This document shows positions 2,737 to 15,497 of a stretch of 15,670 nucleotides of DNA, one piece after another. Each line of letters opens with the position of its first letter. The stretch's first letter is position 1. The notes under the pieces were generated by a model. That model was not told the DNA's origin. It made no database searches and saw nothing but the letters and a program-made list of their open reading frames with translations. Made by a program: the position numbers and the translations under genes. This stretch comes from a virus (Duplodnaviria > Heunggongvirae > Uroviricota > Caudoviricetes), in IMG/VR virus record IMGVR_UViG_2693429623_000009; one strand, 5' to 3'.

Positions 2737-5700
2737 TCTTGTTATTGACCTGAGTCTGGATGCTGTCCGTTTCGATGAGCAGATGAGCCGGGTAAGGCGT
2801 CATTTTTCAGGTCTGGATACCGACGCCAGAAAAACCGCCAGTGCTGTTGAACAGGGCCTGAGCCGCCAGGCGCTGGCTGCACAAAAAGCCGGGATTTCCG
2901 TCGGGCAGTATAAAGCGGCCATGCGAACCCTGCCCGCACAGTTTACGGATATCGCCACGCAGCTTGCCGGTGGTCAGAATCCCTGGCTGATCCTGCTGCA
3001 ACAGGGCGGTCAGGTGAAGGACTCCTTCGGCGGGATGATCCCCATGTTCAGGGGGCTTGCCGATGCGATCACCCTGCCGATGGTCGGGGTCACCTCGCTG
3101 GCGGTGGCGACAGGTGCACTGGTGTACGCCTGGTACCAGGGAGATTCCACGCTTTCAGCGTTTAATAAAACCCTGGTTCTTTCCGGTAATCAGTCCGGAC
3201 TGACTGCCGATCGTATGCTGACTCTCTCAAGAGCCGGGCAGGCAGCAGGGCTGACGTTTAACCAGGCGAGAGAGTCACTGGCAGCCCTGGTGAATGCCGG
3301 TGTGCGTGGTGGTGAACAGTTTGATGCCATCAACCAGAGTGTCGCGCGTTTTGCGTCTGCATCCGGTGTGGAGGTGGATAAAGTCGCTGAAGCCTTCGGG
3401 AAGCTGACCACTGACCCGACGTCGGGACTGATGGCGATGGCGCGCCAGTTCCGTAACGTGACGGCAGAGCAGATTGCGTATGTTGCACAGCTGCAGCGTT
3501 CCGGAGACGAGGCCGGGGCATTGCAGGCGGCGAACGATATCGCCACGAAAGGCTTTGATGAGCAGACCCGTCGCCTGAAAGAAAACATGGGAACACTGGA
3601 GACCTGGGCGGATAAAACAGGGAAGGCATTCAAATCGATGTGGGATGCCATTCTGGATATCGGTCGTCCGGAATCCTCAGCGGATATGCTCGCCAGTGCG
3701 CAGAAGGCATTTGATGAGGCGGATAAAAAATGGCAGTGGTACCAGAGTCGGAGCCAGCGCCGCGGTAAAACCTCCTCTTTCCGGGCCAACCTTCAGGGCG
3801 CATGGGATGACCGGGAAAATGCCCGTCTGGGTCTGGCAGCGGCAACGCTGCAGTCGGATATGGAAAAAGCCGGTGAACTGGCGGCAAGGGACAGGGCTGA
3901 GCGTGAGTCGTCACAGCTGAAGTATACCGGAGAGGCGCAGAAGGCGTATGAGCGCCTGCTGACGCCACTGGAGAAATATACCGCCCGGCAGGAAGANGCC
4001 ATGCGTATGCTGCCTGCACAGTTCACCGACGTGGCCACGCAGCTTGCAGGGGGGCAGAATCCCTGGCTGATCCTGCTGCAACAGGGTGGTCAGGTTAAGG
4101 ACTCCTTCGGCGGGATGATCCCCATGTTCAGGGGGCTTGCCGGTGCGATCACCCTGCCGATGGTGGGGGCCACCTCGCTGGCGGTGGCGACCGGTGCGCT
4201 GGCGTATGCCTGGTATCAGGGCAACTCAACCCTGTCCGATTTCAACAAAACGCTGGTCCTTTCCGGTAATCAGGCGGGACTGACGGCAGATCGTATGCTG
4301 GTCCTGTCCAGAGCCGGGCAGGCGGCAGGGCTGACGTTTAACCAGACCAGCGAGTCACTCAGTGCACTGGTTAAGGCGGGGGTAAGCGGTGAGGCTCAGA
4401 TTGCGTCCATCAGCCAGAGTGTGGCGCGTTTCTCCTCTGCATCCGGTGTGGAGGTGGACAAGGTCGCTGAAGCCTTCGGGAAGCTGACCACAGACCCGAC
4501 GTCAGGGCTGACAGCGATGGCACGCCAGTTCCATAACGTGACGGCGGAGCAGATTGCGTATGTTGCTCAGTTGCAGCGTTCCGGCGATGAAGCCGGGGCA
4601 TTGCAGGCGGCGAACGAGGCCGCAACGAAAGGGTTTGATGACCAGACCCGCCGCCTGAAAGAGAACATGGGCACGCTGGAGACCTGGGCAGACAGGACAG
4701 CACGGGCATTCAAATCCATGTGGGATTCGGTGCTGGATATTGGTCGCCCGGACACTGCCCAGGGAATGCTGGAGAAAGCAGAAAAGGCTTTTGATGAGGC
4801 GGACAAAAAATGGCAGTGGTATCAGAGCCGGAGCCACCGGCGCGGTAAAACCTCAGCATTTCTTGCCAATCTCCGGGGAGCATGGGAGGACAGAGCGAAT
4901 GCGCAACTTGGGCTTTCAGCCGCCACGTTGCAGGCCGATCTTGAAAAGGCCAGAGAGATGGCAGCAAAGGACTGGGCCGAGTCTGAGGCATCACGGCTGA
5001 AATATACCGAAGAGGCGCAGAAGGCTTACGAACGGCTGCAGACGCCGCTGGAGAAATATACCGCCCGTCAGGAAGAACTGAACAAGGCACTGAAAGACGG
5101 GAAAATCCTGCAGGCGGATTACAACACGCTGATGGCGGCGGCGAAAAAGGATTATGAAGCGACGCTGAAAAAGCCGAAACAGTCCGGCGTGAAGGTGTNC
5201 CCGACGTCGGGGCTGACGGCGATGGCACGCCAGTTCCATAACGTGACGGCGGAGCAGATTGCGTATGTTGCTCAGTTGCAGCGTTCCGGCGATGAAGCCG
5301 GGGCATTGCAGGCGGCGAACGAGGCCGCAACGAAAGGGTTTGATGACCAGACCCGCCGCCTGAAAGAGAACATGGGCACGCTGGAGACCTGGGCAGACAG
5401 GACTGCACGTGCATTCAAATCCATGTGGGATGCGGTGCTGGATATTGGTCGTCCTGATACCGCGCAGGAGATGCTGATTAAGGCAGAGGCTGCGTTTAAG
5501 AAAGCAGACGACATCTGGAATCTGCGCAAGGATGATTATTTCGTTAACGATGAAGCACGGGCGCGTTACTGGGATGATCGTGAAAAAAAACGCCTGGAGC
5601 GGGATGCAGCCCAAAAGAGGGTAGATCAACAGCGTCAACAGGACAAAAATGCGCAGCAGCAGAGCGATACCGAAGCGTCACGGCTGAAATATACCGAAGA

Positions 5701-7398
5701 GGCGCAGAAGGCTTACGAACGGCTGCAGACGCCGCTGGAGAAATATACCGCCCGTCAGGAAGAACTGAACAAGGCACTGAAAGACGGGAAAATCCTGCAG
5801 GCGGATTACAACACGCTGATGGCGGCGGCGAAAAAGGATTATGAAGCGACGCTGAAAAAGCCGAAACAGTCCGGCGTGAAGGTGTATGCGGGCGATCGTC
5901 AGGAAGACAGTGCTCATGCGGCCCTGCTGACGCTTCAGGCAGAACTCCGGACGCTGGAGAAGCATGCCGGAGCAAATGAGAAAATCAGCCAGCAGCGCCG
6001 GGATTTGTGGAAGGCAGAAAGTCAGTTCGCGGTACTGGAGGAGGCGGCNNNNNNNNNNNNNNNNNNNNNNNNNNNNNNNNNNNNNNNNNNNNNNNNNNNN
6101 NNNNNNNNNNNNNNNNNNNNNNNNNCCTGAAAGACGGGAAAATCCTGCAGGCGGATTACAACACGCTGATGGCGTCGGCAAAAAAGGATTATGAGTCGAC
6201 GCAGAAAAAGCCGTCCGGTGTGAAGGTGTCTGCCGGTGAGCGCCAGGAAGACCAGGCGCATGCAGCCCTGCTGGCGCTTGAAACTGAGCTCAGGACGCTG
6301 GAGAAGCACAGCGGTGCGAATGAAAAAATCAGCCAGCAGCGCCGTGATTTATGGAAAGCGGAAAATCAGTATGTGGTCCTGAAAGAGGCCGCCACGAAAC
6401 GGCAGTTATCTGAGCAGGAAAAATCCCTGCTGGCCCATGAGAAAGAAACGCTGGAGTACAAACGCCAGCTGGCTGAGCTGGGCGACAAGATTGAACACCA
6501 GAAACGGCTGAATGAGCTGGCACAGCAGGCGGCGCGGTTTGAACAGCAGCAGAGCGCGAAGCAGGCGGCAATCAGCGCAAAAGCCCGCGGACTCACCGAC
6601 CGTCAGGCGCAGCGGGAGTCGGAAGAGCAGCGCCTTCGTGAGGTGTACGGTGATAATCCGGCTGCGCTGGCGAAGGCCACATCTGCACTGAAGAACACCT
6701 GGTCTGCGGAGGAGCAGCTTCGTGGAAGCTGGATGGCCGGGATGAAGTCCGGCTGGGGCGAGTGGGCGGAAAGTGCGACGGACAGTTTTTCGCAGGTTAA
6801 AAACGCGGCCACGCAGACCTTTGACGGTATTGCACAGAATATGGCAGCGATGCTGATCGGCAGCGAACAGAACTGGCGTGGTTTCACCCGTTCTGTGCTG
6901 TCCATGCTGACAGAGATTTTTCTGAAGCAGGCGATGGTGGGGATAGTCGGGAGTATCGGCAGCGCCATTGGCGGTGCTTTCGGTGGTGGTGCGTCTGCCT
7001 CCACGGGGACGGCCATTCAGGCTGCGGCGGCGAACTTCCATTTCGCGACCGGGGGATTTACGGGGACGGGGGGTAAATATGAACCTGCGGGGATTGTTCA
7101 TCGCGGGGAGTTTGTCTTCACGAAGGAGGCGACCAGCCGGATTGGTGTCGGCAATCTGTACCGCCTGATGCGGGGCTATGCGGAAGGTGGTTATGTCGGC
7201 GGTGCCGGAAGTCCGGCGCAGATGCGGNGCATTAATTTTAATCAGAACAATCACGTGGTGATTCAGAACGACGGCCCCAACGGGCGGGCAGGGCCGCAGC
7301 TGATGAAAGCGGTGTATGAGATGGCCCGCAAGGGGGCACAGGATGAACTCCGGCTGCAGTTGCGTGATGGCGGTATGTTATCAGGGAGCGGTGGATGA
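2717..7398 (+). CDS. H: Tail tape measure protein H (lambda gpH homologue), interrupted as assembled by N-delimited overlapping segments
   Basis: ATG at 2717 with a GGGAGG RBS, overlapping the T stop. The N-terminus (MSQPVGDLVIDLSLDAVRFDEQM...) and C-terminus (...GGKYEPAGIVHRGEFVFTKEATSRIGVGNLYRLMRGYA...RDGGMLSGSGG) are gpH-like, and the stop overlaps the M start (ATGA). Internal structure is not colinear: single N at 3997, 5199 and 7228, and an N run at 6049-6125 that breaks the frame. Total span is about 1560 codons. Confidence 0.85.
2921..5076 (+). repeat. Two tandem, in-frame diverged copies of a 1080-bp tape-measure segment (2921-3996 and 4001-5076) joined at an N (3997)
   Basis: Base-by-base comparison at offset 1080, for example 3421-3780 against 4501-4860, gives roughly 85-90% identity by eye. 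The second copy is nearly identical to lambda gpH as I recall it, and the first is a diverged allele. Confidence 0.8.
5200..6048 (+). repeat. Third overlapping tape-measure segment that re-starts about 705 bp back in the gene after the N at 5199
   Basis: 5200 to about 5450 is near-identical to 4495 to about 4745, and 5678-5885 is identical to 4991-5198. The segment then runs into the N gap. Confidence 0.8.
6049..6125. other. Assembly gap (77 N) inside the tape measure gene
   Basis: Run of n characters. The flanks overlap: 6127-6398 is a diverged copy (about 85% by eye) of 5777-6048. Confidence 0.95.
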
Positions 7399-8432: not shown

Positions 8433-9176
8433 ATGACACAGACTGAATCAGCGATTCTGGCACATGCCCGGCGGTGTGCGCCTGCGGAGTCGTGCGGCTT
8501 CGTGATAAGCACGCCGGAGGGGGAGCGGTATATCCCTTGTGTGAATATTTCCGCAGAGCCGGAGGCGTATTTTCGTATCGCACCGGAAGACTGGCTGCGG
8601 GCAGAGATGCAGGGGGAGATTGTGGCACTGGTCCACAGTCATCCCGGTGGGCTGCCCTGGCTGAGCGAGGCTGACCGGCGGTTGCAGATAAAAAGCGCAC
8701 TGCCCTGGTGGTTGGTCTGCCGGGGTGACATTCACAAATTCCGCTGTGTGCCACATCTGACAGGACGGCGCTTTGAGCACGGGGTGACGGACTGTTACAC
8801 GCTGTTCCGGGATGCTTATCATCTGGCGGGGACTGAAATGCCGGATTTTCATCGCGAGGATGACTGGTGGCGCAACGGTCAGAACCTTTACCTGGACAAT
8901 ATGGCGGTCACCGGCTTTTACCGGGTGCCCCTGTCCTCTGCACAGGCGGGCGATATTCTGCTGTGCTGCTTTGGTGCTTCGGTACCGAACCATGCCGCCA
9001 TTTACTGCGGCAACGGTGAGCTGCTTCACCATCTGCCTGAACAACTGAGTAAACGGGAGAGGTATTCCGAAAAATGGCAACGACGAACGCATTCAGTCTG
9101 GCGTCACCGCCACTGGCACGCATCTGCCTTCACGGGGATTTACAACGATTTGGCCGCCGCCTCAGCCTGTATGTGA
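8433..9176 (+). CDS. K: Tail tip assembly protein K (lambda gpK homologue) with JAB/MPN-like and NlpC/P60-like motifs
   Basis: ATG at 8433, 11 nt after the L stop (MTQTESAILAHARRCAPAESCGF...). It contains an HSHP...SEAD motif (JAMM-like) and a C-terminal Cys/His region. The six-frame ORF extends upstream to 8172 but that part overlaps L. The 3' end overlaps I by 103 nt, as in lambda. Confidence 0.82.
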   Translation: MTQTESAILAHARRCAPAESCGFVISTPEGERYIPCVNISAEPEAYFRIAPEDWLRAEMQGEIVALVHSHPGGLPWLSEADRRLQIKSALPWWLVCRGDIHKFRCVPHLTGRRFEHGVTDCYTLFRDAYHLAGTEMPDFHREDDWWRNGQNLYLDNMAVTGFYRVPLSSAQAGDILLCCFGASVPNHAAIYCGNGELLHHLPEQLSKRERYSEKWQRRTHSVWRHRHWHASAFTGIYNDLAAASACM

Positions 9177-9754
9177 ACACGGCAGCGGAAGCCATTCGCG
9201 CCCTGTCGATGCAGATGCCGGGCTTTCGCCGTCAGATGAACGAAGGCTGGTACCAGATACGTATTGCCGGTTATGACACGGCACCGGAGGCGGTGTACGC
9301 CCGTCTTCACGAACAGCTGGGTGAGGGAACGGTCATCCACATTGTGCCGCGACTGGCCGGGGCCGGAAAGGGTGGACTGCAGATTGTGCTGGGGGCGGCA
9401 GCCATCGTGGGCTCTTTCTTCACTGCCGGGGCATCAATGGCGTTATGGGGTTCAGCCCTGGCAGCCGGTGGTTTTTCTGCCACCACGATGCTGTTTTCAC
9501 TTGGAGCCAGCATGATTCTGGGCGGTGTGGCCCAGATGCTGGCCCCGAAGGCAAAAACACCGGATTACCGCGCAACGGATAACGGCAGACAGAACACGTA
9601 CTTTTCCTCACTGGATAACATGATTGCCCAGGGGAACCCGATGCCGGTGCCTTACGGGGAAATGCTGGTTGGCTCCCGCCGTATATCCCAGGACATCAGC
9701 ACCCGTGATGAAGGCGGGGGCGGAAAGGTCGTGGTTATCGGGCGGCAGGGGTAA
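9074..9754 (+). CDS. I: Tail tip assembly protein I (lambda gpI homologue)
   Basis: 226-aa ORF starting inside the K 3' end, matching the lambda K/I overlap arrangement. It has a Gly/Ala-rich hydrophobic central segment and ends ...GGGGKVVVIGRQG. Confidence 0.82.
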   Translation: MATTNAFSLASPPLARICLHGDLQRFGRRLSLYVNTAAEAIRALSMQMPGFRRQMNEGWYQIRIAGYDTAPEAVYARLHEQLGEGTVIHIVPRLAGAGKGGLQIVLGAAAIVGSFFTAGASMALWGSALAAGGFSATTMLFSLGASMILGGVAQMLAPKAKTPDYRATDNGRQNTYFSSLDNMIAQGNPMPVPYGEMLVGSRRISQDISTRDEGGGGKVVVIGRQG

Positions 9755-9768
9755 AAAGAATAAAAAAA

Positions 9769-9800
9769 TCCCGCAGTGATCGCGGACAGGAACTGCGGGA
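9769..9800 (-). terminator. Candidate intrinsic terminator for a leftward (minus-strand) transcript
   Basis: An 8-bp stem (TCCCGCAG at 9769-9776 pairs with CTGCGGGA at 9793-9800) with a 16-nt loop. On the + strand it is preceded by A7 at 9762-9768, so on the minus strand the hairpin is followed by a U run. Confidence 0.4.
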
Positions 9801-9967
9801 GAGTTACGAAGATTAAGTGTAAGGAATTATTCTTATATCACGACAAAAAAATTAACGCAGAGAAATTATACGCGCCACAGTCAGTTTGTGAAAATGTGAA
9901 GATATTCAGAATTTTTATGCCATTACCGGTTTTAACCAACAGGATTATCGGTGGGCATGAAAGAAAA

Positions 9968-10000
9968 CCCCGGTATCTGCTGATACCGGGGTTTCTCTTT
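9968..10000. terminator. Perfect 10-bp GC-rich hairpin with a 4-nt loop, flanked by an A-rich 5' side and T-rich 3' side (bidirectional terminator shape)
   Basis: CCCCGGTATC at 9968-9977 pairs with GATACCGGGG at 9982-9991, loop TGCT, followed by TTTCTCTTT and preceded by AAGAAAA. Confidence 0.45.
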
Positions 10001-10097
10001 AGCATGGCAGAAATGTGTTTCATGCTTTTCGGGCGAAGGATATCCGACTTCTGTACGGAATGGCAAGTGGCGGTTAATTTATTCAGGGGAAGGCTGT

Positions 10098-15427
<5,330 letters not shown>

Positions 15428-15449: not shown

Positions 15450-15476
15450 GGCGTCAGGAATGACGCCTTTTTTATT
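15450..15476 (+). terminator. Rho-independent terminator downstream of J
   Basis: GGCGTCA at 15450-15456 pairs with TGACGCC at 15461-15467, loop GGAA, followed by TTTTTTATT. Confidence 0.7.
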
Positions 15477-15497
15477 GCAGAAAAGCGAGAGGTAATT

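What the first reader, a model, noticed from the sequence alone, without database searches (positions are those of the whole stretch)
9755..10097. AT-rich 343-bp insert between tail genes I and J with terminator-like hairpins (moron-like element)
From memory, lambda I and J are separated by only about 60 bp. Here they are 343 bp apart, and the spacer is visibly AT-rich against GC-rich tail genes, which is the usual signature of a horizontally acquired moron. It contains two strong hairpins (9769-9800 and 9968-9991) whose flanking A and T runs give them terminator character, one of them specifically for a leftward transcript. I see no ORF with a credible RBS. A small RNA or a cis-regulatory or attenuator element inside the late tail operon is therefore plausible.
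Basis: partly seen in the sequence, partly recalled or inferred. Interest (0 to 1): 0.55.

Follow-up and report, generated by a model that had tools for sequence, protein, structure and literature searches.

The report
Prophage small RNA gene pasB
The AT-rich gap between tail genes I and J holds a divergent copy of pasB, a published Hfq-dependent prophage small RNA transcribed against the tail operon, followed by a separate, almost invariant 179-bp hairpin-rich module of unknown role, so most of the finding is real but already known.

Summary
The I-J spacer is 343 bp, against 60 bp in lambda. It is the most AT-rich stretch of the window and contains both reported hairpins.

The spacer is two units, not one insert.

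Left unit (about 9762-9892, minus strand):
- A complete small-RNA gene with a near-consensus sigma-70 promoter, an unstructured body of about 97 nt, and an intrinsic terminator with seven U.
- It belongs to the PasB family, described in EPEC E2348/69 (83 nt, Hfq-dependent, 37 RIL-seq partners). It probably also corresponds to EcOnc22-24 of EHEC Sakai.
- It lies in the same I-J position and antisense orientation as PasB.
- A covariance model built only from other alleles finds it at 59 bits (E = 2e-12).
- The window's allele is 74% identical to E2348/69 PasB over aligned bases. Published surveys seem to have missed it. The 343-bp spacer that carries it is at least 99% identical in 633 of the 20,395 records (5,426 complete E. 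coli genomes).

Right unit (9919-10097):
- A non-homologous alternative to a shorter version found in other prophages.
- It carries a 13-bp bidirectional terminator-like hairpin. This is the positional counterpart of a hairpin in lambda's own I-J spacer.
- It is nearly invariant across E. coli and its function is unknown.

No credible ORF is present. Interest is low to moderate.

The parts
9173..9754 (+). Tail assembly gene I (3' flank of the spacer); stop codon TAA at 9752-9754.
   Evidence: Pfam PF06805 Lambda_tail_I, E = 3.4e-10. RefSeq calls the identical region 'tail assembly protein'.
9762..9858 (-). pasB-family small RNA, window allele ('type B'), about 97 nt. The 5' end is predicted 7 nt after the -10 box; the 3' end is after U7.
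   Evidence: A covariance model built from 12 non-B alleles hits 9858..9762 at 59.1 bits, E = 2e-12, over the full model length; the next best hit scores 17 bits. 20 of 23 nt of the published PasB northern probe match exactly (9762-9781). Same I-J position and antisense orientation as E2348/69 PasB.
9762..9800 (-). Intrinsic terminator of pasB: stem 9800-9792 / 9777-9769, 14-nt loop, U7 at 9768-9762.
   Evidence: The 7-bp core CCCGCAG/CUGCGGG is invariant in 25 of 25 distinct alleles, while the loop varies from 4 to 16 nt by indels.
9808..9816 (-). Conserved single-stranded motif UUAAUCUUC just 5' of the terminator; the AUCUU core is at 9813..9809. Candidate seed.
   Evidence: A46 U47 C48 U49 U50 are the only invariant run in the otherwise variable body of 25 alleles. 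The region is unpaired in the consensus fold. Zhu et al. place the PasB seed just upstream of the terminator.
9865..9892 (-). Sigma-70 promoter of pasB: -35 TTCACA (9892..9887), 16-nt spacer, -10 TATAAT (9870..9865).
   Evidence: 11 of 12 consensus positions. The -10/-35 architecture is kept in alleles A and B.
9892..9913 (.). Conserved stretch just upstream of the -35 box: AAATGTGAAGATATTCAGAATT. It is CRP-like (TGTGA-N6-TCAGA) and A/T-rich (UP-element-like). It is also the joint between the left and right modules.
   Evidence: Two mismatches to the 22-mer CRP consensus; 1 match in the window against 0.03 expected. The 25-mer TGTGAAAATGTGAAGATATTCAGAA (9887-9911), which overlaps this stretch, is present in 118 of 120 loci selected only by the terminator. 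The half-sites are kept in the diverged Sakai allele. The centre lies at about -44.5, not the canonical -41.5, so CRP control is only a lead.
9919..10097 (.). 'Long' right module: a 179-bp orphan, nearly invariant, hairpin-rich sequence. It replaces the roughly 85-bp 'short' module of E2348/69 and Stx phages.
   Evidence: At least 99% identical in 1442 of 1451 E. coli records, always at this site. Nucleotide diversity is 0.000-0.003 against 0.02-0.08 in the flanking genes. No homologue in any other context.
9965..9994 (.). 13-bp perfect hairpin flanked by an A-tract and a U-tract on both strands (plus: UUUCUCUUU; minus: UUUUCUUUC). It has the form of a bidirectional intrinsic terminator.
   Evidence: z about -7. 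Positional analogues: the short-module hairpin plus UUGUUUUU, with one CG<->UA compensatory pair, and lambda's GAAACCGCC-UGCG-GGCGGUUUU.
9914..10025 (.). Nested inverted repeats around the central hairpin: 9914-9923 / 10004-10013 and 9955-9962 / 10018-10025.
   Evidence: Whole-module folds give z = -4.9 (minus strand) and -3.3 (plus strand).
10037..10066 (-). Weak promoter-like site TTGCCA-18-TATCCT. With the hairpin it would give a minus-strand RNA of about 72 nt (10030..9957). Speculative.
   Evidence: 9 of 12 consensus positions, within the range expected by chance (3 sites found against 0.8 +/- 0.8 in shuffles). The putative RNA folds at -31.9 kcal/mol, z = -7.4, mostly because of the terminator hairpin.
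10086..10301 (+). J translation start (SD GGGGAAGG 10086-10093, ATG 10098) and the first 67 codons, ending at a premature TGA (10299-10301).
   Evidence: The closest complete genomes (99.8% identical) have an intact gpJ.

Best explanation
The spacer is a composite of two modules that sit in a cargo slot of a lambdoid tail operon.

(1) Positions 9762-9892, minus strand, form a self-contained small-RNA gene of the PasB family: sigma-70 promoter, a mostly unstructured body of about 97 nt, and an intrinsic terminator with U7. By homology it is transcribed in the lysogen while the tail genes around it are silent. It is stabilised by Hfq. It acts in trans by base-pairing with host and prophage mRNAs. 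The pairing region is probably the conserved single-stranded UUAAUCUUC just 5' of the terminator.

(2) Positions 9919-10097 form a separate module. Its core is a strong terminator-type hairpin. This is the local equivalent of a hairpin that lambda and the short-spacer relatives also carry just upstream of J. It most likely stops RNA polymerase that has not been modified by Q from reading into J. On the other strand it would shield the pasB promoter from antisense read-through.

Basis of each step:
- Shown by sequence or statistics here: gene anatomy, family membership, position, and conservation pattern.
- Taken from published work on homologues: expression, Hfq dependence, and trans partners.
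- Inferred only: expression of this particular allele, the identity of the seed, and the terminator or insulator function of the right module.
For: Anatomy: promoter 11 of 12; terminator hairpin plus U7.

Identity:
- The PasB northern probe AATCCCGCAGTGATCGCGGAGCT and the coordinates NC_011601 1466343..1466261 (minus strand, between E2348C_1436 and E2348C_1437) come from PMC8550237 Table S6.
- Those genes are I and J.
- The alignment places the window element at the same site and on the same strand.
- A model built without any type-B allele scores the window at 59.1 bits, E = 2e-12.
- Zhu et al.'s 'PasB-2 differs at position 27' is reproduced exactly by my allele A_L010.

Function in homologues:
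- pasB baseMean is 482 and 1082, against 5 and 15 for the flanking I and J genes.
- log2FC in the hfq deletion is -6.8 and -2.4.
- U-tract of 7; 37 RIL-seq partners; second RNA in at least 98.7% of chimeras.
- Northern blot validation.
- EcOnc22: about 85 nt, destabilised in the hfq deletion. It maps to the I-J spacer of Sp15 and Sp11, antisense to the tail genes.

Conservation: stem invariant in 25 of 25 alleles with variable loops; AUCUU invariant; the body otherwise 73% mean column identity.

Right module: hairpin z about -7; analogous plus-strand hairpins in the short module, with one compensatory pair, and in lambda.
Against: - No transcript data exist for this allele or for this genome. 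The 5' end is predicted only. The published PasB start, estimated from read coverage, lies about 14 nt downstream of my predicted start.
- The terminator stem never varies, so covariation neither supports nor tests it.
- The EcOnc22 equivalence rests on an inferred +128-nt coordinate shift between NC_002695.1 and .2. I calibrated that shift only on HnrS.
- The window allele differs from E2348/69 PasB at 26% of aligned positions, so its targets may differ.
- For the right module there is no evidence of termination in vivo. The terminator scan did not call the hairpin, probably because its flanking A and U tracts extend the stem.
- The module's near-zero diversity is not explained by a simple terminator role.
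Confidence: 0.85

Rival explanations
1. PasB acts mainly in cis. It is perfectly complementary to the I-J segment of the late tail mRNA. It would pair with leaky or late transcripts, with RNase III or RNase E cleavage or transcriptional collision as the outcome, and so limit or uncouple J expression. Trans partners would be secondary.
For: - The gene is always antisense and always at the I-J junction in all 155 related loci and in the E. coli hits.
- I and J are nearly silent in the lysogen while pasB is abundant.
- The body sequence drifts freely. A cis-antisense RNA tolerates this, because both strands change together.
Against: - RIL-seq finds 37 trans partners, with PasB as the second RNA in the chimeras, which is the signature of a trans-acting Hfq sRNA.
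- An invariant AUCUU motif within a drifting body points to a constraint from trans targets.
- In the window J is already inactivated by a nonsense codon while pasB is intact.
- No interaction with the I-J transcript appeared in the supplement search.
Confidence: 0.2
2. The long right module encodes a second, uncharacterised small RNA. It would be about 72 nt on the minus strand, from the weak promoter at 10066..10037 to the hairpin plus UUUUCUUUC (10030..9957), in tandem with pasB. Alternatively it would be a plus-strand RNA ending at the same hairpin.
For: - A promoter-like site, two stem-loops and a U-rich tail are present.
- The module is extremely conserved: diversity 0-0.003 against 0.02-0.08 in the flanks, and at least 99% identity in 1442 of 1451 records.
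- The whole module folds far better than shuffles.
Against: - The promoter scores only 9 of 12, within chance expectation.
- Nothing reached a family's gathering score in Rfam. The best sub-threshold match was STnc310 at 19.4 bits against a gathering score of 40, and it covers mainly the terminator.
- No diverged homologues exist, so there is no covariation to test.
- Invariance can equally mean recent origin and spread.
- The two further orphan Hfq-CRAC peaks I checked in Sakai, EcOnc54 and EcOnc35, lie outside I-J spacers. I did not establish that Sakai carries the long module.
Confidence: 0.17
3. The spacer is inert debris: a decayed remnant of a protein-coding moron. Its hairpins and promoter-like hexamers would have no present function.
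For: - The I-J junction is a cargo slot (sodC in Sp10).
- The DNA is AT-rich.
- The ORFs have no ribosome-binding site and no family matches.
- The prophage in the window looks defective.
Against: - The promoter, terminator and motif are kept across alleles that differ at about 26% of positions.
- Homologues are abundantly expressed and Hfq-bound.
- 1662 of 5426 complete genomes retain part or all of this spacer.
Confidence: 0.04
4. The right module encodes a small protein: the 66-aa plus-strand ORF from ATG 9917, or the 61-aa minus-strand ORF from ATG 10022.
For: The ORFs exist. One phage record annotates a 'hypothetical protein' over the region (H12).
Against: - Neither ATG has a Shine-Dalgarno sequence.
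- Both ORFs read through the 13-bp hairpin.
- The plus-strand ORF overlaps the J start out of frame.
- There are no Pfam or PHROG hits.
Confidence: 0.03

Closest known systems
PasB (pathogenicity-associated sRNA B) of EPEC O127:H6 E2348/69 prophage PP6 (Pearl Mizrahi et al. 2021, PMC8550237; Zhu, Shabalina and Storz 2026, bioRxiv 10.64898/2026.05.13.724894)
   Same: - Same locus, between tail genes I and J, and same antisense orientation.
- Same promoter hexamers.
- Same 5' GCGUUA and U-run.
- Same AUCUU motif.
- Identical terminator stem and U7.
- 20 of 23 nt of the northern probe match.
- The covariance model gives E = 2e-12.
   Different: - The body is only 74% identical over aligned bases, or 66% counting gaps.
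- The terminator loop is 5 nt longer.
- E2348/69 has the short right module, giving a 240-bp spacer.
- This allele is typical of ExPEC-type strains such as ATCC 25922 and ST131.
- The published blastn survey describes only variants with a few nucleotide differences, so it appears to have missed this allele.
EcOnc22/23/24 of EHEC O157:H7 Sakai prophages Sp15, Sp14 and Sp11 (Tree et al. 2014, PMC4104026, Table S2)
   Same: - An Hfq-CRAC peak on the strand antisense to the tail genes, in the I-J spacer.
- About 85 nt on northern blot and destabilised in the hfq deletion.
- The Sakai spacer holds a third allele with the same terminator stem, AUCUU motif and upstream TGTGA-N6-TCAGA.
   Different: - The Sakai allele is 74% identical to the window's over aligned bases and has a weaker -35 box.
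- The equivalence depends on my +128-nt coordinate shift between genome versions.
- Targets are unknown.
HnrS (EcOnc10-12), a 66-nt prophage sRNA that represses hha (Poudyal et al. 2026, PMC13502914)
   Same: A multicopy, Hfq-associated sRNA encoded among the late genes of lambdoid prophages. It also contains AAUCUUC.
   Different: - It lies at a different locus, between the lysis genes and terminase.
- The sequence is unrelated.
[quoted passage not shown]
AgvB / AsxR anti-sRNAs and classical lambdoid morons (Tree et al. 2014; Juhala et al. 2000)
   Same: Autonomous cassettes, each with its own promoter and terminator, carried in the late regions of lambdoid prophages and expressed from the lysogen.
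   Different: - Those sit downstream of pR' in the Q-S 'moron' site, not between I and J.
- They are 51-60 nt long and act as sponges of core sRNAs.
- There is no sequence similarity, and the Rfam AgvB and AsxR models do not hit the window.
sodC cargo between I and J in Sakai prophage Sp10
   Same: The same junction is used as a cargo slot, with the cargo on the antisense strand. A type-B pasB body plus terminator lies downstream of sodC.
   Different: There the cargo is a protein gene. The insertion replaced the pasB promoter, and the long module is absent.
Terminator-like hairpin in lambda's own 60-bp I-J spacer
   Same: A G+C-rich stem with a 5' A-tract and a 3' U-tract, lying between the I stop codon and the J ribosome-binding site.
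   Different: No sequence similarity. In lambda the stem is 8-9 bp and lies about 25 nt from J. Here it is 13 bp, lies 103 nt from J, and is embedded in further inverted repeats. I am not aware that its function has been established in lambda either.

Membership tests
PasB / EcOnc22 prophage sRNA family | Located in the spacer between tail assembly gene I and host-specificity gene J, and transcribed antisense to them. | tested here: met
   I stops at 9754 and J starts at 10098. The element lies at 9762-9892 on the minus strand. E2348/69 PasB lies at 1466261-1466343 (minus strand), between I (ending 1466255) and J (starting 1466496).
PasB / EcOnc22 prophage sRNA family | Significant sequence and structure similarity to described members. 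| tested here: met
   A covariance model built from 12 alleles, excluding all window-type sequences, gives 59.1 bits, E = 2e-12, over the full model length. The next hit scores 17.4 bits. Identity to E2348/69 PasB is 74%.
PasB / EcOnc22 prophage sRNA family | [quoted passage not shown] | tested here: met
   A 9-bp stem plus U7. The core stem is invariant in 25 of 25 alleles.
PasB / EcOnc22 prophage sRNA family | Own promoter, giving a primary transcript of about 80-100 nt. | tested here: inconclusive
   The consensus-like promoter TTCACA-16-TATAAT predicts a 97-nt RNA. The published sizes are 83 nt (from coverage and northern blot) and about 85 nt. No 5'-end mapping was available for any allele.
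PasB / EcOnc22 prophage sRNA family | Conserved single-stranded seed just upstream of the terminator. | tested here: met
   AUCUU is invariant and lies in the unpaired region. Its role as the seed is a proposal, by Zhu et al. and by me, and has not been shown.
PasB / EcOnc22 prophage sRNA family | Hfq-dependent stability and Hfq-mediated pairing with mRNAs. | not testable with these tools
   Shown only for the E2348/69 allele (log2FC -6.8 in the hfq deletion; 37 RIL-seq partners) and for EcOnc22.
Lambdoid moron (autonomous cargo cassette) | Extra DNA between conserved phage genes, of atypical composition, with its own promoter and terminator, expressed from the prophage. | tested here: met
   283 bp more than in lambda; GC 0.354 in the pasB unit against 0.57 for the window; promoter and terminator present. 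Expression is shown only in homologues.
Rfam families (AgvB, AsxR, STnc100, others) | Score at or above the family's gathering threshold. | tested here: not met
   No hit at gathering thresholds anywhere in the window. All sub-threshold hits in 9650-10200 are below half of the family's gathering score.
Intrinsic (bidirectional) terminator, for hairpin 9965-9994 | G+C-rich stem followed by a U-tract on the transcribed strand, and termination in vivo. | tested here: inconclusive
   A 13-bp stem with 4-nt loop, and tails UUUCUCUUU (plus strand) and UUUUCUUUC (minus strand). The simple scan did not call it. Termination itself cannot be tested here.

The most novel reading that the evidence does not exclude
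The 179-bp right module (9919-10097) is a functional element in its own right and has recently swept through E. coli lambdoid prophages. It could be a second small RNA that ends at the 9965-9994 hairpin, or a structured cis element that controls J expression or insulates pasB. This would explain why it is essentially invariant in 27% of complete E. coli genomes, while the tail genes on either side and the adjacent pasB body are polymorphic.
Probability: 0.2. Interest if true: 0.5.

Novelty: new member of a known kind. Interest (0 to 1): 0.3.

Why it matters
PasB is one of the most interaction-rich accessory sRNAs of EPEC, yet its targets and role are still undefined.

- Allele diversity. The family comes in at least three deeply diverged alleles that share only the promoter, a short AUCUU-centred motif and the terminator. 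The allele in this window is the commonest one in ExPEC-type strains such as ATCC 25922 and ST131. This widens the family beyond the EPEC and EHEC pathotypes where it has been studied, and it gives a natural allelic series for defining the seed.
- Modular exchange. The I-J junction is a modular cargo slot. The body alleles, the two right modules and sodC are exchanged there through a conserved promoter joint.
- Annotation. About 1,660 complete E. coli genomes carry part or all of this spacer with no annotated feature under it. The practical gain is correct annotation of that unannotated sRNA gene.
- Right module. The invariant right module is a small unexplained observation that would be cheap to test.

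Tried and rejected
- Rfam. Gathering thresholds over the whole window, and permissive E-values over 9650-10200, gave no family. Only sub-threshold terminator look-alikes appeared.
- HnrS (EcOnc10-12) as the identity of the element. Rejected, because it lies between the lysis genes and terminase.
- svsR / co293. Rejected, because it is encoded at the 3' end of cI.
- PasB sharing the hha target with HnrS through the common AAUCUUC. HnrS pairs CUUCUACC with GGUAGAAG as published, but the PasB alleles show no specific duplex: the E2348 and Sakai alleles are no better than shuffles, and the window allele is marginal, with an implausibly long duplex.
- Protein-coding readings of the spacer. No ribosome-binding sites and no Pfam or PHROG hits (two calls, 79-80, failed on a frame error).
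- A MITE or repeated-element reading of the right module. It occurs only at this locus in E. coli, phages, plasmids and metagenomes. Other metagenomic matches to the hairpin pattern are unrelated sequences.
- A plus-strand promoter that could feed the plus-strand hairpin. None was found (and by inspection).
- Other Sakai EcOnc peaks (EcOnc54, EcOnc35) as possible I-J transcripts. They are not at I-J.
- Full-text search for the sequences. No paper found.
- One scan of species-representative genomes with the promoter 21-mer. Only E. albertii, plus two probable contaminant contigs.
- Listing PasB's RIL-seq targets. Not feasible, because the table is too long for the remaining supplement look-ups.
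- Covariation for the pasB terminator. Uninformative, because the stem never varies.
Full report
OBSERVATION

- Gene I matches Pfam Lambda_tail_I and ends with TAA at 9752-9754.
- J starts at ATG 10098, behind a GGGGAAGG Shine-Dalgarno sequence. That leaves 343 non-coding bases.
- The spacer has GC 0.417, against 0.566 for the window and about 0.6 for I and J. It is in the lowest 0.1% of all 343-nt windows.
- Both hairpins exist. The first has arms 9769-9777 and 9792-9800. The second has arms 9965-9977 and 9982-9994, a perfect 13-bp stem that folds about 7 standard deviations better than shuffled sequence on either strand.
- The ORFs that cross the spacer have no ribosome-binding site, run through the hairpins, and match no Pfam or PHROG family.

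THE LEFT HALF IS A COMPLETE SMALL-RNA GENE ON THE MINUS STRAND

The promoter scan found TTCACA-16-TATAAT (11 of 12 consensus positions) at 9892..9865 on the minus strand. About 97 nt downstream lies hairpin 1. On that strand it is followed by seven U (9768-9762), so it is a classical intrinsic terminator. The predicted RNA (9858..9762) has no ATG and folds into little apart from the terminator.

IT IS A MEMBER OF THE PUBLISHED PasB FAMILY

- Pearl Mizrahi et al. (PMC8550237, Table S6) list PasB in EPEC E2348/69 at NC_011601 1466343..1466261. It is on the minus strand, 83 nt long, in prophage PP6, between E2348C_1436 and E2348C_1437, and antisense to both. The northern probe is AATCCCGCAGTGATCGCGGAGCT.
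- Those two genes are the tail assembly protein I and gpJ.
- Twenty of the 23 probe bases occur exactly at 9762-9781 of the window.
- The alignment places the two elements at the same site and on the same strand.
- As a formal test I built a covariance model from 12 alleles that excluded every window-type sequence. It finds 9858..9762 at 59.1 bits, E = 2e-12, over the full model length. The next best hit in the window scores 17 bits.
- As a cross-check, Zhu, Shabalina and Storz (bioRxiv 10.64898/2026.05.13.724894) state that PasB-2 differs from PasB by a single base at position 27. My second commonest allele differs from the E2348/69 sequence at exactly that position.
- Rfam holds no PasB model, and nothing in the window reaches any family's threshold.

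WHAT THE FAMILY DOES, FROM PUBLISHED WORK ON HOMOLOGUES

In E2348/69:
- pasB has a normalised RNA-seq level of 482 to 1082, while the flanking I and J genes are at 5 and 15.
- It drops by log2 6.8 and 2.4 in an hfq deletion.
- It has a U-tract of 7 and 37 RIL-seq partners, and it is the second RNA in at least 98.7% of its chimeras. That is the signature of a trans-acting Hfq sRNA.
- It was confirmed by northern blot and is higher under the 'non-activating' condition.

In EHEC Sakai:
- Tree et al. (PMC4104026, Table S2) list three homologous orphan Hfq-binding sites, EcOnc22, 23 and 24, in Sp15, Sp14 and Sp11. They are about 85 nt on northern blot and destabilised without Hfq.
- The Sp15 and Sp11 coordinates fall in the 240-bp I-J spacers, on the strand antisense to the tail genes. 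Those spacers hold a third pasB allele.
- The published peak falls on the pasB body if coordinates are shifted by +128 nt, which is the length difference between the two versions of the Sakai record. I calibrated that shift on HnrS, whose terminator I located in the current record. This equivalence is therefore an inference.

THE ALLELE IN THE WINDOW IS DIVERGENT AND COMMON

I scanned IMG/VR with the terminator and with a promoter 25-mer and obtained 155 loci. These gave 38 distinct RNA sequences.
- The window's exact RNA is the commonest (49 loci, including the E. albertii contig from the species-representative genome scan).
- It is only 74% identical to E2348/69 PasB over aligned bases, or 66% counting gaps. 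It is equally distant from the Sakai allele.
- Across 25 distinct alleles the invariant parts are the 5' GCGUUA, a U-run, the pentamer AUCUU (9813..9809) in the unpaired stretch just before the terminator, the 7-bp stem CCCGCAG/CUGCGGG, and the U-tail. The terminator loop ranges from 4 to 16 nt through indels.
- The stem never varies, so covariation says nothing for or against it. Its retention amid 27% mean column divergence and free loop length does argue for constraint.
- AUCUU is my candidate for the seed core. This fits Zhu et al.'s proposal that the PasB seed lies just upstream of the terminator.

In complete E. coli genomes:
- The spacer matches 1662 of 5426 genomes.
- 633 of the 20,395 records searched are at least 99% identical (window allele plus long module). 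950 are 90-95% identical (mostly the E2348-type body plus the long module).
- Carriers of the exact spacer include ATCC 25922 and an ST131 strain.
- Zhu et al. describe PasB variants as differing by only a few nucleotides and filtered blastn hits at 75% query coverage. The window-type allele was therefore very probably outside their survey.

THE SPACER IS MODULAR

Right of about 9918 the sequence exists in two unrelated versions.
- The 'long' version is the window's 179 bp.
- The 'short' version, about 85 bp, occurs in E2348/69 and in Stx1 and Stx2c phages.
- Among loci chosen only by the terminator, all four combinations of body allele and right module occur: B-long 45, A-short 32, A-long 29, B-short 6.
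- The joint is the stretch just upstream of the -35 box. The 25-mer TGTGAAAATGTGAAGATATTCAGAA (9887-9911) is present in 118 of those 120 loci.
- The overlapping stretch 9892-9913 is AAATGTGAAGATATTCAGAATT. This is two mismatches from the 22-mer CRP consensus, with 1 match in the window against 0.03 expected. The half-sites are kept in the diverged Sakai allele.
- Its centre would lie near -44.5, not the canonical -41.5. It is also A/T-rich like an UP element. CRP control is therefore only a lead. It is compatible with PasB being higher in LB than in glucose-rich DMEM.

The junction is a general cargo slot. In Sakai Sp10 a sodC gene sits on the antisense strand between I and J. Downstream of it lies a window-type pasB body and terminator that have lost their promoter.

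THE RIGHT MODULE

Hairpin 2 has an A-tract before it and a U-rich tract after it on both strands (plus: UUUCUCUUU; minus: UUUUCUUUC). That is the form of a bidirectional intrinsic terminator. It is nested within two further inverted repeats, and the whole module folds well on both strands.

A terminator-like hairpin just upstream of J is not peculiar to this insert.
- The short module has CAGGCAYYC...GRRUGCCUG followed by UUGUUUUU. This stem has one CG<->UA compensatory pair and 98.6% of cells paired.
- Lambda's own 60-bp spacer has GAAACCGCC-UGCG-GGCGGUUUU.

I therefore read hairpin 2 as the local version of an ancestral I-J feature. It would most likely be a terminator that only Q-modified polymerase passes. 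In this version it would also act on the other strand to shield the pasB promoter. This is inference, and none of it is tested.

One feature remains unexplained: the module's near-total invariance.
- It is at least 99% identical in 1442 of 1451 E. coli records and always lies at this site.
- Among 53 distinct haplotypes, nucleotide diversity is 0.000-0.003 across 9887-10086. It is 0.02-0.08 in the coding flanks and 0.20 in the pasB body. The two seed patterns used to select those loci account for only 49 of those 200 bases.
- No diverged homologue, and no copy in another context, was found in phages, plasmids, E. coli genomes or metagenomes.
- Either the module is young and has spread by recombination, or nearly every base is constrained.
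- A second small RNA on the minus strand, from a weak TTGCCA-18-TATCCT promoter to the hairpin (about 72 nt), is possible. That promoter is within chance expectation.

ALTERNATIVES I REJECTED

- HnrS is a different sRNA at a different late-region site.
- svsR is at cI.
- The spacer ORFs are not credible genes.

VERDICT

That RNA is already known as PasB, and the window carries a divergent, common and apparently unsurveyed allele of it. The second hairpin belongs to a separate, invariant module whose role is open. I rate the novelty as a new member of a known kind and the interest as low to moderate.

Noticed in passing
window 10299-10301; also 12014, 12165-12773, 12718-13746, 13740-14591: The J (host-specificity) gene is broken. 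Codon 68 is TGA where relatives read W. Further along, the reading frame is interrupted several times. The closest complete genomes (99.8% over 9500-10700) have an intact gpJ, so the lesion seems private to this genome. pasB is intact in a probably defective prophage.
   Followed up: partly
window 3998-6048 and 12729-14053, compared with L003 (ATCC 25922 prophage): Parts of the tape-measure gene and of J align twice to the ATCC 25922 prophage. The 6-kb collinear block carries 61 gaps. This indicates internal duplications, or possibly assembly noise, in the window.
   Followed up: no
L162 (Sakai Sp10) 17485-18335; record 1963484-1964334: A Cu/Zn superoxide dismutase gene (sodC, ECs_1989) lies on the antisense strand between I and J. 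A window-type pasB body and terminator sit downstream of it, and the insertion replaced their promoter. Any PasB made there would have to come from sodC read-through.
   Followed up: partly
L131 and L128 (IMG/VR loci): Insertion sequences interrupt the spacer in two loci. One lies between the -35 and -10 boxes of the pasB promoter (L131). The other lies inside the long module, after ...CAACAGGATT (L128).
   Followed up: no
L156 (Sakai Sp12) 1672-1737; record about 2234371-2234436: Probable HnrS gene: a 66-nt stretch ending in a 9-bp terminator plus U7. It contains CUUCUACC, complementary to the hha ribosome-binding site GGUAGAAG. Coordinates in Tree et al. 2014 appear to be offset by about +128 nt relative to NC_002695.2.
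   Followed up: partly
L157 (Asaia platycodi JCM 25414 contig, 546 bp) and L159 (Streptomyces flavalbus contig, 3408 bp): Species-representative assemblies of unrelated bacteria contain short contigs with the E. coli prophage pasB promoter 21-mer. L159 holds a complete pasB-like allele. These are most likely contaminant contigs.
   Followed up: no
L285 (lambda) 1264-1287; record about 15463-15486: Lambda's own I-J spacer contains a terminator-like hairpin, GAAACCGCC-UGCG-GGCGGUUUU, about 25 nt upstream of the J start codon. I did not find it discussed in the papers I read.
   Followed up: partly
window 10087-10236: Nucleotide diversity among haplotypes that carry the long module recovers only gradually into J (0.008, 0.018, 0.034 per 50 nt). 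On the left it jumps abruptly at the pasB body. This asymmetric valley is consistent with recent spread of the module together with the J start.
   Followed up: no
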